This document shows positions 29,501 to 33,248 of a stretch of 64,000 nucleotides of DNA, one piece after another. This stretch comes from Octopus sinensis (lineage: Eukaryota), in the NCBI RefSeq assembly GCF_006345805.1, contig NC_043008.1:24180001-24244000 (forward strand), given 5' to 3'. A program made the position numbers. Within the stretch, counting starts at the first letter, position 1; every line of letters begins with the position of its first letter.

Positions 29501-32500
29501 GACTCTCCCCTCTAATAATTACATGACCTACTTTATATTGGGCTAACATTTTCTCCAAATCCCCCTACGCATTTTCCAGATGTCTTTAGCTAGGCCGAAA
29601 TAATGTCTTCACCGATTGACCCTTTCTAACTTCTTTTACTTCACCAAAAGATAGAGATAATAAGACCACCAACTAAATCTATTGTTCTCAATAATATATC
29701 TATCCTTCTAGATAGTTATATAAACAAGCACACCCCAAGCAAAAATCAGTTAGTATAGTCGGTAACGACTCAACGAGTCCAGTCACAGGGTGACGACTCA
29801 ACAAAGTCTGGCTGATCAGCTAGAACATTGGTCAGAGGAAGAAATGAAGTTTACTGTCAGCAACTGTGAGACAACGTCCAACACCCTACAATTTTCTCTA
29901 GCTCTAATTCTGTTCTCTTACAACATCATTCTATCGCTATCTCTGGTTTACTACTAACTATTTGTATATGCAAACTGTGTAAAGAAACGTTCTACTGCAT
30001 CTAACTTTCTTTCGCATGCTTTTGGATTTATCATAACCTGCTCGTCGAGGCAAGATATTGTAACGTAACGGTAAATAAATATTTCATTAAAACTTCATGC
30101 ATTGTTCATCTTTCACATCCTACAGTATGCGATTATAACAACAAATTTCTATCGTTAAAACTGCTGACTCCGGCATTTCATACTATTGTTTACTAATCAA
30201 TCTTAACCGTTACAAATCTCATCTGGACAGGTATTGCTCCCTTCTTCACTCAAGGTTCTTCGATATTATATAATATGATATATTCATATTTTATTGTTCA
30301 ATTTTATTGTTCATATTTTATTGTTCAATCCCGACTAGCTGAACCGTTATTATTTTCAAAATAAGTCAGCCAGTCAAATTCAAATGTTTATTCGTCAAAT
30401 TGGATTATTTCAAGCCATATATTACATGTACCATTACAATTTTATTCCTGTACTGATCACAGCTGTCCGAAAATACGGGAACGTAAAACTCTGAGTAACA
30501 GAAAAGTGTGTGTGCGTGTGCGCGTGTTGTATTTAAGGACATATTTGGTAATTTAATGATACAACTCTAATTTGTGCACATGCTCTAGCTAAGCTTTCTT
30601 AATTTTTTTTTTATTTTTTCCTCCCTATGAATCTGTCTTCAGCTTCGATGACTGCTTTATGCAGGATCGGAATCGTTAATATGCTTGCAATAAATAGTTC
30701 TTATTTATTTTTTAATTTCATCTGGACAATGGCACCCTTCAGTGAAGCTATGATATTGTCAGGGTGTTGATTTGCTTCTCAATAATGGTCCAAATGTTGA
30801 TATTTAATGTTGGAGCCTACAAGTTTGATGTTTCATAATCGGAAAGATTGTACATAACCATCGGTCATTGCTGTTGTGACACTTTTATTTTTCGTCGATG
30901 ATTTTCTCAATAGAAAGAACCAAAGTATATCGTATTCGTGGTGATATCTAACCTTGTTTAGTTACCGTTTGGGACGGATCAAATTATTTTCCTGTGGTTT
31001 TGTGGACATAAACTGGCTTCTCCTCAGTACATACGGCTTGTATCGAATGTCCTGTTCCGAGGTTCGGACAGTCCAAGCTAACACCCGAAGTTCATCGACG
31101 AAGGCCCGCATTGATTTTGCGAGATCTTCATTGATAATGTTTTGAAACTGTTGGATGAATTGCGATGTTCTTTTTTTGATTTGTTTTGTTTTTTGTTTTC
31201 GTTTTATCTTTGACGCAGAGGCTTCCAATTCTATCCGAAGTTTGTGAATGAAATGTTTTGCAACATTTAGAAAGTTGGCAATTTCTAAATTGTTGTTCCG
31301 TACATATTGCATTATTGACTGTATTTCTTTTCATTTCCTGTTTTAGCATGGGGGATCTGAGAGAAACAAAACCTTTTAAATGGTTTGCAGTGAGTAATAT
31401 ACTGATAATCAAGCATACTGTAATACCCTAATATGCAGGACATGGCACCAGTCCTACTTCTCCACAGTTCAAAGATTTGAGCAAAGTTGCCTCCAGCATC
31501 GAGACAAACTTCCTGCAAGCATGAAGGTACATTTTCAAAACGTTGCTCCTCTAAATGGAAACCTTACCTGTCGTTGTGGTTTGGTGGCACGAAGCAGAGC
31601 AGGCCTTGCCGTACACTCAAGGAAGCACATAGTAAATGATCCACAAGCACTCGAGCAAACTGAGTCAGCTTGTTCCTTTTGCCAAAAGGTTTGTAAAGCA
31701 TCAACAGCTCTATTTGACGGAACCCTCATTTGTCATTCATGACGATAGAATCCTTCATATATCTATCTATCTATATATATATATATATATAGCAATAATA
31801 ATTCTCTATAAGAGATATAGACAGTAACTGCTCGATAACATAAGGGACTAAAGCCATCTGAATATGGCTAGGGACGGGGCAGGGTGGTGGGGGTGTTACT
31901 GTTGCATTTAGCCCCAGGCGAACATCGACGTCGCTAGATAGGCTTGACACCGTCACGGTGTCCTTTAACCTGCAAAGGGAGATAATTCCCCGATGAAGCG
32001 GAAACCACACACGGACCATGGTTTCAAGGTGTATTGCCTATCGTCAACGTGTGGTAGGCCTCCGCTTCCTCGACGAAATCTCACTCTGCAGGTTATTCAT
32101 ATATAGATTTTCAAGCAAAATACATTTGCTGATTTCGAAAATCTGTTCGACAGCAATAATAATTCTCTATAAGAGATATAGACAGTAACTGCTCGATAAC
32201 ATAAGGGACTAAAGCCATCTGAATATGGTATCGAGCAGTTACTGTCTATATCTCTTATAGAGAATTATTATTGCTGTCGAACAGATTTTCGAAATCAGCA
32301 AATGTATTTTGCTTGAAAATCTATATATGAATAACCTGCAGAGTGAGATTTCGTCGAGGAAGCGGAGGCCTACCACACGTTGACGATAGGCAATACACCT
32401 TGAAACCATGGTCCGTGTGTGGTTTTCGCTTCATCGGGGAATTATCTCCCTTTGCAGGTTAAAGGACACCGTGACGGTGTCAAGCCTATCTAGCGACGTC

Positions 32501-33248
32501 GATGTTCGCCTGGGGCTAAATGCAACAGTAACACCCCCACCACCCTGCCCTGTCCCTAGCCGTATTCAGATGGCTTTAGTCCCTTATGTTATATATATAT
32601 ATAACGTAATCTTCATACTCAACTTAACATGGTTGCTATGTTAGAATACCGAATACTACGTTATTAACCTTGAGAGATCCTCCCATATTAGTGCTTGGTG
32701 CATAAAAGTACGGACATTAACATAGCAAACGAAATTTGTTTGTCATGAGCGCCGGCATTCCTATTCACCTGATTTCGGCCTATTGGACCACCTCAGTTGG
32801 AAGCACCGGTCACTTTCTGCTAGCCAAATCACACTGTCATGATATATAGAATTCCAGCATGTTTTCAGACACTAATGTCGCAAATAGCCAGCATGCTTAT
32901 TAAAAGTCATAGGTGCGGGAATTCCCATATTACGGCGCCTATGGCAGATGGATTTTGTTTGCTATGATCTATGTGTGTGCTTTTATCAAATAACAAAGAT
33001 CCTCTCAACACATGGCTATGATGCTCCCCCACTATTTCTGCTCGTGATCAGAGATGCTCATATCGTCAGCCACTAAGGGACATGCTCAACTGGTTAAGGT
33101 CAAACAACTGACAAGTAAATATGTGGTATTGAGCAGAATATTTGCTGTATCCCATATTTTATACCAAGACAAAACAATGTACATGATAGCACTTCCAATC
33201 GGTTAAGATCAGAAGCCATGAGAGTCACTGCCTGGTACTGCATCAGGG

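What the first reader, a model, noticed from the sequence alone, without database searches (positions are those of the whole stretch)
31791..32592. Candidate retrozyme / circular-RNA element: 361-nt hammerhead monomer inserted as a permuted 1.2-mer plus an inverted monomer
Seen: a non-coding unit of exactly 361 bp. Its ends overlap (31791-31867 = 32152-32228), and it is fused head-to-head at 32228/32229 to exactly one inverted monomer with different start and end points (3 substitutions seen). It is flanked by (TA)n, and each unit holds a type I hammerhead motif. Known: metazoan non-LTR retrozymes are short tandem hammerhead repeats that yield circular RNAs and are thought to be mobilised by Penelope-like RTs, whose insertions show tandem and 5'-inverted copies. 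Inference: circular permutation without fixed ends suggests reverse transcription of a circular or multimeric RNA. This could be a young, possibly undescribed family.
Basis: partly seen in the sequence, partly recalled or inferred. Interest (0 to 1): 0.85.

Follow-up and report, generated by a model that had tools for sequence, protein, structure and literature searches.

The report
Hammerhead-bearing retrozyme-like insertion, octopod genome
An 802-base insert in a TA microsatellite consists of two back-to-back copies of a 361-base non-coding unit carrying a hammerhead-ribozyme-like motif, and its layout matches that left by Penelope-type retrotransposition of small ribozyme RNAs, a known kind of element not yet described in cephalopods as far as my searches show.

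Summary
The repeat geometry is real. There is a 361-nt unit, a 77-nt perfect direct overlap, and a 369-nt inverted arm with 3 substitutions plus one junction mismatch. The insert lies between (TA)10 and (TA)7.

Each copy carries a type I hammerhead-shaped motif: a 6-bp helix I with a UAC bulge, a 4-position helix II, a 2-bp helix III with a palindromic tetraloop, and a GUC site. Position 3 of the core is U instead of C. No Rfam hammerhead model scores it.

A relaxed descriptor finds such motifs 0.05-0.17 times per simulated 64-kb window. The motif-bearing strand folds far better than shuffles (z -6.8).

On that strand both copies have their 3' ends against the (TA)n and their 5' ends joined at a TATG microhomology. 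One copy is 1.21 units, and its 3' end reaches 44-47 nt further along the unit than the other copy's. The other copy is one turn (361 nt plus a repeated TAT).

This matches published Penelope-like insertion hallmarks and non-LTR retrozymes. Copy number, circular RNA and self-cleavage could not be tested. This locus has one ribozyme per strand, so it cannot release monomers itself. Verdict: probably a new member of a known kind.

The parts
31772..31791 (.). Left target microsatellite, (TA)10, preceded by (TATC)3. It is probably the microsatellite tail of the LINE fragment upstream. Its last A is ambiguous with unit position 1.
   Evidence: A similar (TGTA)n(TCTA)n tract follows another LINE 3' end at 26496-26600.
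31791..32228 (-). Longer copy: 438 nt = 1.21 units. The sense (hammerhead) strand is the - strand. It runs from unit position c285 at 32228, through the unit junction, to c361 at 31791, so its 3' end abuts the left (TA)n.
   Evidence: 0 mismatches to the unit
31791..31834 (-). 3'-terminal 44 nt of the longer copy (47 nt if the ambiguous TAT is counted). The other copy's 3' end stops short of this stretch. It is comparable to the one-sided 'tail' of Penelope-like insertions.
   Evidence: Craig 2021 passages
31995..32068 (-). Hammerhead-like motif of the longer copy, including the distal part of helix I. Core at 32047-32041; predicted cleavage after C at 32014.
32224..32227 (.). TATG microhomology where the 5' ends of the two copies are joined head to head.
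32229..32592 (+). Inverted copy: 364 nt with the sense strand on +. It runs from c315 round one full turn to c317 (361 nt plus a repeated TAT), so its 3' end abuts the right (TA)n. It has 3 transitions relative to the other copy.
32359..32432 (+). Hammerhead-like motif of the inverted copy. Distal stem 32359-32370 / 32421-32432; UAC bulge 32371-32373; helix I 32374-32379 / 32414-32419; core UUGACGA 32380-32386; helix II with loop 32387-32401; GAAA 32402-32405; palindromic helix III 32405-32412; cleavage after C 32413.
32332..32461 (+). Roughly 130-nt long hairpin with the hammerhead motif at its tip. The mirror copy lies at 31966-32095 on -.
32590..32603 (.). Right target microsatellite, (TA)7. 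Its first TAT is ambiguous with the end of the inverted copy.

Best explanation
The 802-bp insert is a dead-end retrotransposed copy of a small non-coding RNA element of the non-LTR retrozyme kind: a 361-nt, highly self-paired unit with one type I hammerhead-like ribozyme. It was integrated by Penelope-like machinery into the (TA)n tail of an older LINE fragment. Proposed steps, all inferred from the layout: (1) the endonuclease made a staggered break in the (TA)n; (2) both exposed 3' ends primed reverse transcription on A/U-rich spots of a circular or multimeric unit RNA; (3) one cDNA ran 1.21 turns and the other stopped after one turn; (4) the two cDNA 3' ends annealed through TATG and were filled in. 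This gives two head-to-head copies with their 3' ends outward. Shown directly: the geometry, the motif and the fold. Not shown: ribozyme activity, the circular RNA, the identity of the reverse transcriptase and the existence of a master tandem array elsewhere. With one hammerhead per strand, the locus cannot release monomers itself.
For: Geometry. Both copies include the unit junction c361/c1, and no copy end lies at the cleavage site c138/c139.

Motif: it has a 6-bp helix I, a UAC bulge, a 4-position helix II with a 7-nt loop, GAAA, a 2-bp helix III with the palindromic tetraloop CAUG, and GUC. This matches the 'canonical' metazoan type I architecture described in Cervera & de la Pena 2014: helix I 6 bp, helix II 4 bp, helix III 1-2 bp with a small palindromic loop. 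It also parallels the Rfam HH9 consensus printed: a bulge ending UAC before a 6-bp helix I, and a loop 2 starting CAA. A U.U pair at the base of helix II and a 2-bp helix III with a tetraloop are reported for axolotl retrozyme hammerheads.

Core variants: the same heptamer with U at position 3 is cited as a natural variant (PMC7151607 Introduction). A U3-A8 variant is reported in Schistosoma Penelope-like elements.

Chance rate: 0.05-0.17 hits per 64-kb simulated window.

Fold: the sense strand folds at -125.6 kcal/mol against a shuffle mean of -90.1 (z -6.84, 0 of 100 shuffles as good). The antisense strand gives z -3.80. The one substitution inside the motif (32426) turns a G-C pair of the distal stem into G.U.

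Penelope-like hallmarks (Craig 2021): partial tandem, an inverted 5'-truncated copy at the 5' end, a 30-40-bp tail at one end only, and microsatellite insertion bias ((TA)n for Naiads). All four are seen here. Hammerhead pairs on opposite strands 100-700 bp apart are reported; here they are 366 bp apart.

Family fit: retrozyme units are 150-450 bp with GC <50%, and mussel units are 350-390 bp; here the unit is 361 bp with 46% GC.

Host: the window is octopod-like (best named LINE relative is from Argonauta hians, 62% identity). Octopus vulgaris is reported to hold 31 recently active Penelope-like families (Table 1).
Against: No Rfam hammerhead family matches the unit at gathering score or at E<=10, even in a 121-nt search. 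The core has U at the conserved C3 and a U.U pair at 10.1/11.1, so activity may be weak or absent. My descriptor was written after seeing the motif. The unit occurs only at this locus in the window. No Penelope-type ORF is in the window: no GIY-YIG match among the 142 ORFs scanned, and the reverse-transcriptase fragments that could be typed sit beside AP-endonuclease or zf-RVT domains, i.e. LINE-type. There is no head-to-tail array here and only one hammerhead per strand. The two copies differ at 31865/32562 while both tandem repeats of the longer copy agree, so the two arms may not come from one identical template. Copy number, transcripts and circles are untested.
Confidence: 0.62

Rival explanations
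1. The insertion mechanism is the same, but the unit is not an independent retrozyme. It is the terminal-repeat (pLTR) part of an autonomous or internally deleted Penelope-like element with fixed transcript ends, and no monomeric or circular RNA is involved.
For: All four layout hallmarks are those of ordinary Penelope-like insertions. The inverted copy is one unit long, running from c315 back to c317, which could equally mean a linear RNA with defined ends there. The 44-47-nt difference in 3' ends fits the described one-sided tail. A 2026 preprint finds vertebrate retrozymes to be close relatives of pLTRs.
Against: The motif has the 'canonical' helix sizes that Cervera & de la Pena associate with retrozyme repeats. 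It lacks the features of the minimal Penelope variants: helix II of 7-8 bp, helix I of 4-5 bp and no helix III. No ORF or ORF remnant lies between or beside the copies. The longer copy passes 1.21 units, so its template exceeded one unit.
Confidence: 0.17
2. DNA-level event: a piece of a 361-bp hammerhead satellite array, or of extrachromosomal circular DNA derived from it, was captured at a break in the fragile (TA)n tract. A fold-back or template switch created the inversion.
For: The unit-spanning copies, the TATG microhomology at the centre and the microsatellite site are also what microhomology-mediated repair with filler DNA can give. No reverse-transcription signature such as poly(A) is present.
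Against: It does not explain why both outward ends are 3' ends of the ribozyme-bearing strand. It also does not explain why the layout reproduces every published Penelope-type hallmark.
Confidence: 0.1
3. Assembly artefact: a fold-back or chimeric read was collapsed into a palindrome.
For: Craig 2021 notes that such tandem/inverted structures often cause assembly problems. The palindrome is 99% complementary.
Against: The arms differ at 3 positions and are unequal in length (438 versus 364 nt). The centre is a 20-nt non-palindromic stretch, there is a 361-nt direct repeat, and unique sequence continues on both sides within one contig.
Confidence: 0.04
4. A DNA transposon of the foldback or MITE kind with long inverted repeats and a TA target duplication.
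For: Long inverted arms flanked by TA repeats.
Against: The two termini are not inverted copies of each other: the left end carries 44 nt that are absent from the right end. No second copy or transposase lies in the window.
Confidence: 0.02

Closest known systems
Metazoan non-LTR retrozymes (Cervera & de la Pena 2020, PMC7229834; Results parts 1-2 and Discussion read)
   Same: A non-coding unit of a few hundred nt (361; mussels 350-390), GC below 50%, one type I hammerhead per unit, and a strongly self-paired RNA with the ribozyme free at a hairpin tip. [quoted passage not shown]
   Different: There is no head-to-tail array at this locus, only 1.21 units plus one inverted unit. The core has U at C3. 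Family size, transcription and circles are unknown. No cephalopod case appeared in the papers I read or searched.
Penelope-like element insertions (Craig et al. 2021, PMC8557442, passages read; Cervera & de la Pena 2014, PMC4209133, parts 1-2 of 4 read)
   Same: A partial tandem, an inverted 5'-truncated copy at the 5' end, an extension at one end only, insertion into a microsatellite ((TA)n reported for Naiads), and hammerhead motifs on opposite strands a few hundred bp apart.
   Different: There is no RT/GIY-YIG ORF. The unit is far shorter than the 3.4-4.4 kb given for full-length Naiad copies. The hammerhead has canonical helix sizes rather than the minimal Penelope-type form. Naiads, the clade with the (TA)n bias, are reported to lack canonical hammerheads and to survive only as old remnants in cephalopods.
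Amphibian satellite / axolotl retrozyme hammerheads (HHR_Amex2; PMC7229834)
   Same: A U.U mismatch at the base of helix II and a 2-bp helix III capped by a tetraloop. Here helix III is an 8-nt palindrome, so a two-ribozyme (dimeric) active form is plausible.
   Different: The host phylum is unrelated.
L1 twin priming
   Same: Two target-primed cDNAs start from the two sides of one break and are joined at microhomology. This gives an inversion with both 3' ends outward.
   Different: In L1 the two segments come from different parts of one linear RNA. Here each arm is a full unit or more, which needs a circular or multimeric template.

Membership tests
Hammerhead ribozyme, type I | Conserved core C3 U4 G5 A6 N7 G8 A9 / G12 A13 A14 / A15.1-U16.1 / H17 | tested here: inconclusive
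   Every conserved core position matches except C3, which is U in both copies. The same heptamer with U3 is cited as a rare natural variant, and a U3-A8 variant is known in Penelope-like elements. Here U3 faces G8.
Hammerhead ribozyme, type I | Three helices around the core, with helices II and III closed by loops and helix I open | tested here: met
   Helix I is 6 bp, followed by a UAC bulge and a 12-bp distal stem. Helix II is a U.U pair plus 3 bp with a 7-nt loop. Helix III is 2 bp with a CAUG loop. The constrained fold is feasible at -29.9 / -32.8 kcal/mol, against an MFE of -37.8 / -40.7.
Hammerhead ribozyme, type I | Match to a curated Rfam hammerhead covariance model | tested here: not met
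   No hit at gathering score in the window. None at E<=10 within the unit in the 1401-nt and 121-nt searches.
Hammerhead ribozyme, type I | Self-cleavage after H17 | not testable with these tools
   This needs in vitro transcription of monomer and dimer constructs.
Non-LTR retrozyme | Non-coding unit of about 150-450 bp with GC <50% | tested here: met
   361 bp and 46% GC. The longest open frame is 95 codons, with no Pfam match and no homolog.
Non-LTR retrozyme | Head-to-tail tandem copies, so that two hammerheads on one strand flank a monomer | tested here: not met
   At this locus there is one hammerhead per strand: the copies are 1.21 units and about 1.0 unit, in opposite orientation. A source array elsewhere is only inferred.
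Non-LTR retrozyme | Multi-copy family in the genome | not testable with these tools
   There is one locus in the 64-kb window. No eukaryotic genome collection was on hand. The prokaryote scan found 0 matches.
Non-LTR retrozyme | Highly self-paired unit RNA | tested here: met
   z = -6.84 for the sense strand, with 0 of 100 shuffles as stable.
Non-LTR retrozyme | Expressed as linear and circular unit-length RNA | not testable with these tools
   No RNA data were available.
Penelope-like insertion (non-autonomous) | Partial tandem plus an inverted 5'-truncated copy adjacent to the 5' end | tested here: met
   definition
Penelope-like insertion (non-autonomous) | Extension ('tail', 30-40 bp) at one end only | tested here: met
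   44-47 nt at the left end only (31791-31834), slightly longer than the published range.
Penelope-like insertion (non-autonomous) | Microsatellite target | tested here: met
   (TA)10 and (TA)7 flanks. A target duplication cannot be read within the repeat.
Penelope-like element (autonomous) | ORF with RT and a GIY-YIG endonuclease | tested here: not met
   None in or beside the insert, and no GIY-YIG match in the 142 window ORFs scanned (35, 107).
TIR DNA transposon / MITE | The two termini are inverted copies of each other | tested here: not met
   The left terminus has 44 nt without a counterpart at the right terminus.

The most novel reading that the evidence does not exclude
This would be a young insertion of an active cephalopod retrozyme family whose hammerhead works with a U3.G8 wobble in the core. 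Its layout would then record the mobilisation mechanism directly. Both sides of a (TA)n break primed reverse transcription on a circular 361-nt RNA. One polymerase stopped when it met its own start after exactly one turn. The other displaced its start and ran 1.21 turns. That would be physical evidence for the so far hypothetical circular-RNA template of retrozyme and Penelope-like retrotransposition.
Probability: 0.2. Interest if true: 0.6.

Novelty: new member of a known kind. Interest (0 to 1): 0.42.

Why it matters
Hammerhead repeats, retrozymes and Penelope-like insertion structures are all described. The element is therefore not a new kind of thing.

Its value is as a clean, little-decayed example. 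The arms differ at 3 of 364 positions. With the octopus calibration quoted (Jukes-Cantor distance 0.09 for about 25 My), that is roughly a million years, as a rough inference.

It comes from a lineage, the octopods, for which my searches turned up no retrozyme report.

One arm is one turn of the unit, both arms have their 3' ends outward, and no end lies at the ribozyme cut. A genome-wide tabulation of such insertions could therefore test whether circular RNA is the template. The papers I read still treat that point as a proposal.

The U3 core variant, if active, would add to the known natural tolerance of the hammerhead core.

Tried and rejected
- **Rfam:** searches of the whole window and of three sub-regions gave no hammerhead hit in the unit. 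The strong miRNA and sRNA 'hits' at 32082-32345 merely reflect the long palindrome and lie far below gathering scores.
- **More copies in the window:** blastn at word size 7 found none beyond chance-level 11-22-nt matches.
- **Flank repeats:** the left flank 30800-31790 has no relative in the window. The right flank is unique up to 33026, where a repeated LINE begins.
- **Coding potential:** there is no endless frame round the circle, no Pfam match for the two arm ORFs, and no homolog for 31792-32037(-) in the 5.8-billion-protein set at near lengths.
- **Penelope ORF in the window:** none. I scanned 35 ORFs: 32 of the 60 ORFs of at least 110 aa listed, picked by eye, plus 3 shorter ones. I scanned 107, out of the 119 ORFs of 75-109 aa listed. 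Three were dropped as already scanned and 9 as lying in the microsatellite-rich stretch 36.5-38.2 kb.
- **Prokaryote genomes:** an exact scan for the 34-nt motif core gave 0 matches. This only excludes a trivial bacterial origin.
- **Circular-fold shuffle script:** I replaced it with linear folds.
- **Target-site duplication:** a 12-13-nt resemblance between 31750-31762 and 32608-32619 lies in the wrong order relative to the (TA)n, so I dropped it as chance.
- **Not done:** no comparison with Dfam, Repbase or published retrozyme sequences, none of which was available. No supplementary files were opened, and these may list cephalopod hammerheads.
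Full report
**What is in the sequence**

The region 31791-32592 is an 802-bp insert between (TA)10 (31772-31791) and (TA)7 (32590-32603).
- It holds a 361-nt unit, 31791-32151.
- The unit's first 77 nt recur perfectly at 32152-32228 (77/77).
- From 32229 the reverse complement of the unit follows. The inverted arms 31835-32203 and 32224-32592 are 369 nt long with 4 mismatches, one of which is the junction position 32228.
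- It is the longest inverted repeat in the window.
- The unit has no other copy in the 64 kb.

**Polarity**

I take as 'sense' the strand that carries the hammerhead-like motif, and number the unit c1-c361 on that strand.
- The left copy (sense on the - strand) runs c285-c361 and then c1-c361. That is 438 nt, or 1.21 units.
- The right copy (sense on the + strand) runs from c315 round to c317. That is 364 nt: one full turn plus a repeated TAT that is also the start of the microsatellite.
- Both copies have their 3' ends against the (TA)n.
- Their 5' ends meet in the centre at a TATG microhomology (32224-32227).
- The 3' end of the left copy reaches 44-47 nt further round the unit than that of the right copy.
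- Both copies contain the c361/c1 junction.
- Neither has an end at the predicted ribozyme cut, c138/c139.

**The motif**

On the sense strand each copy reads as follows (right-copy coordinates):
- distal stem of 12 bp
- UAC bulge
- helix I of 6 bp
- UUGACGA
- helix II: a U.U pair plus 3 bp, with a 7-nt loop
- GAAA
- helix III: 2 bp closed by the palindromic tetraloop CAUG, the whole 8 nt being a palindrome
- GUC, with C17 at 32413 (+) and 32014 (-)

*Agreement with published hammerheads.* These helix sizes are what Cervera & de la Pena 2014 call the canonical metazoan type I hammerhead: helix I 6 bp, helix II 4 bp, helix III 1-2 bp with a small palindromic loop. They also parallel the Rfam HH9 consensus printed. 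A U.U pair at the base of helix II and a 2-bp helix III with a tetraloop are described for axolotl retrozyme hammerheads.

*Points against.*
- Position 3 of the core is U, not C.
- No Rfam hammerhead model reports the motif, neither at gathering score nor at E<=10 in searches of 1401 and 121 nt.
- U3 is not unheard of. The same heptamer is cited as a rare natural variant (Introduction of PMC7151607), and a U3-A8 covariant is reported in Schistosoma Penelope-like elements.
- C3 normally pairs with G8 (passages of PMC3884650), so U3.G8 would be a wobble. Reduced activity is likely; this is my inference.

*Is it chance?*
- A descriptor allowing C or U at position 3 hit 2 times in 40 first-order-Markov simulations of the window.
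- A descriptor allowing any single core mismatch hit 5 times in 30 simulations.
- The real window has three hits: the two copies of this unit, and one at 2040-2097 that looks like chance.
- The descriptor was written after I had seen the motif, so these rates are optimistic.
- Scaled to a 361-nt unit, however, they are of the order of one in a thousand.
- The motif also sits in a unit that was picked out for an independent reason, its layout.

**RNA fold and coding**
- The sense unit folds at -125.6 kcal/mol against a mean of -90.1 for 100 dinucleotide shuffles (z -6.84).
- The antisense strand gives z -3.80.
- The hammerhead sits at the tip of a hairpin of about 130 nt whose stem continues helix I.
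- The only substitution inside the motif region (32001/32426) changes a G-C pair of the distal stem to G.U.
- The unit is 46% GC.
- It has no frame open round the circle. The longest is 95 codons, with no Pfam match and no database homolog.

**Surroundings**
- The window is TE-rich and octopod-like. A LINE ORF at 6545-8182(-) has its best named relative in Argonauta hians (62% identity).
- Upstream of the insert, 31398-31742(+) is an open frame with cysteine/histidine spacing. It resembles the C2H2-finger tail of the LINE copy at 26146-26460.
- Both of these are followed by TATC/TGTA-type microsatellites. The (TA)n target is therefore probably a LINE tail.
- No Penelope-type ORF lies in the window. 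None of the 142 ORFs scanned has a GIY-YIG domain, and the reverse-transcriptase fragments that could be typed sit beside AP-endonuclease or zf-RVT domains.

**Comparison with what is known**

Craig et al. 2021 (passages) list the hallmarks of Penelope-like insertions:
- partial tandems forming pseudo-LTRs
- often an inverted 5'-truncated copy adjacent to the 5' end
- a 30-40-bp tail at one end only
- a bias for microsatellites, (TA)n in Naiads, which hides target duplications

All four are present here.

Cervera & de la Pena 2014 report hammerhead pairs on opposite strands 100-700 bp apart. Here the two cut sites are 399 bp apart.

Cervera & de la Pena 2020 define non-LTR retrozymes as follows:
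- 150-450-bp repeats with type I hammerheads and GC <50%
- expressed as self-paired circular RNAs of about 170-400 nt
- units of 350-390 bp in mussels
- Penelope-like elements as the likely mobilisers
- circular RNA as the proposed template

The circular-template idea was already put forward in 2014. A 2026 preprint (abstract and Results part 1) argues that vertebrate retrozymes derive from pLTRs, and it treats monomeric copies as possible dead-end offspring of active retrozymes. Octopus vulgaris is reported to have 31 recently active Penelope-like families with 336 insertions (Table 1).

**Most likely mechanism**

These steps are inferred, not shown.
1. A staggered break was made in the (TA)n.
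2. Each 3' end primed reverse transcription on an A/U-rich spot of a unit RNA that was circular or multimeric.
3. One cDNA ran 1.21 units. The other ended after one turn, as expected if the polymerase met its own start on a circle.
4. The two cDNA 3' ends annealed at TATG and were filled in.

This is the logic of L1 twin priming, which I recall from memory and did not read here. It explains the outward 3' ends, the microhomology and the copies that exceed one unit.

The arms differ by three transitions. At one of these (31865/32226 versus 32562) both tandem repeats of the left copy agree against the right copy. That difference therefore either predates insertion or arose once in the right arm.

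The locus has only one hammerhead per strand, so it cannot release a monomer. If a producing array exists, it is elsewhere.

**What stays open**
- Copy number, ends of other copies, transcription, circles and cleavage are all untested.
- No eukaryotic genome, read or repeat library was available.
- The prokaryote scan (0 hits) says nothing about these points.
- 'No cephalopod retrozyme report' rests on two full-text searches and on a term search in PMC7229834. No supplementary files were opened.

**Rivals**
- A pLTR-derived fragment with fixed ends
- DNA-level capture of satellite or circular DNA at a (TA)n break
- An assembly fold-back
- A foldback or MITE DNA transposon, which is excluded by the unequal termini

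**Verdict**

This is probably a new member of a known kind, and of moderate interest.

Noticed in passing
window 32741-32815 (-), within 32721-32966: A second, weaker hammerhead-like motif lies 150 bp to the right of the insert. It is an Rfam HH9 match of 14 bits (gathering score 52), E = 1.6 in a 401-nt search. Its core reads CUGAGGU, helix II is 4 bp with loop CAAUA, and helix I is split by an internal loop. It sits in a stretch whose ends pair (arms 32721-32754 / 32933-32966, 76%) and which folds with z = -3.4. It could be an older, decayed hammerhead element, or it could be chance.
   Followed up: partly
window 2040-2097 (+): This is the only other hit of my relaxed hammerhead descriptor (core UUGAUGA, 5-bp helix I, low-complexity helix II). 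It is about what chance predicts (0.05-0.17 per window).
   Followed up: no
window 6545-9976 (-): A fairly intact LINE with AP endonuclease (9425-9976), reverse transcriptase (7936-9369) and zf-RVT (6545-8182) domains. The closest database proteins are 62-79% identical, and the only informatively named one is from Argonauta hians. This places the window in an octopod.
   Followed up: partly
window 31398-31790 (+) and 26146-26600 (+): Two LINE 3' ends have cysteine/histidine finger-like tails (the 26146-26460 copy matches zf-C2H2). Each is followed by TATC/TGTA/TA microsatellites, and the insert sits in one of these tails.
   Followed up: partly
window 48161-49165 (-): A 335-aa open frame made of ankyrin repeats (Pfam Ank, E = 4e-52), directly beside reverse-transcriptase fragments. 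It could be a host exon or a sequence captured by a transposon.
   Followed up: no
window 54105-54212 / 54401-54508: A 108-nt inverted repeat, 92% complementary, with 188 nt between the arms. It looks MITE-like and is unrelated in sequence to the insert.
   Followed up: no
window 27422-28688: A cluster of diverged direct repeats with spacings of about 157-180 and 620-650 bp (families D8, D9, D13, D16). It is possibly a short satellite or nested SINE-like copies.
   Followed up: no
window 31791-32151, both strands: The two strands of the unit differ strongly in fold excess over shuffles (z -6.84 for the motif-bearing strand against -3.80 for the other). This hints at selection on the RNA of one strand.
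   Followed up: partly
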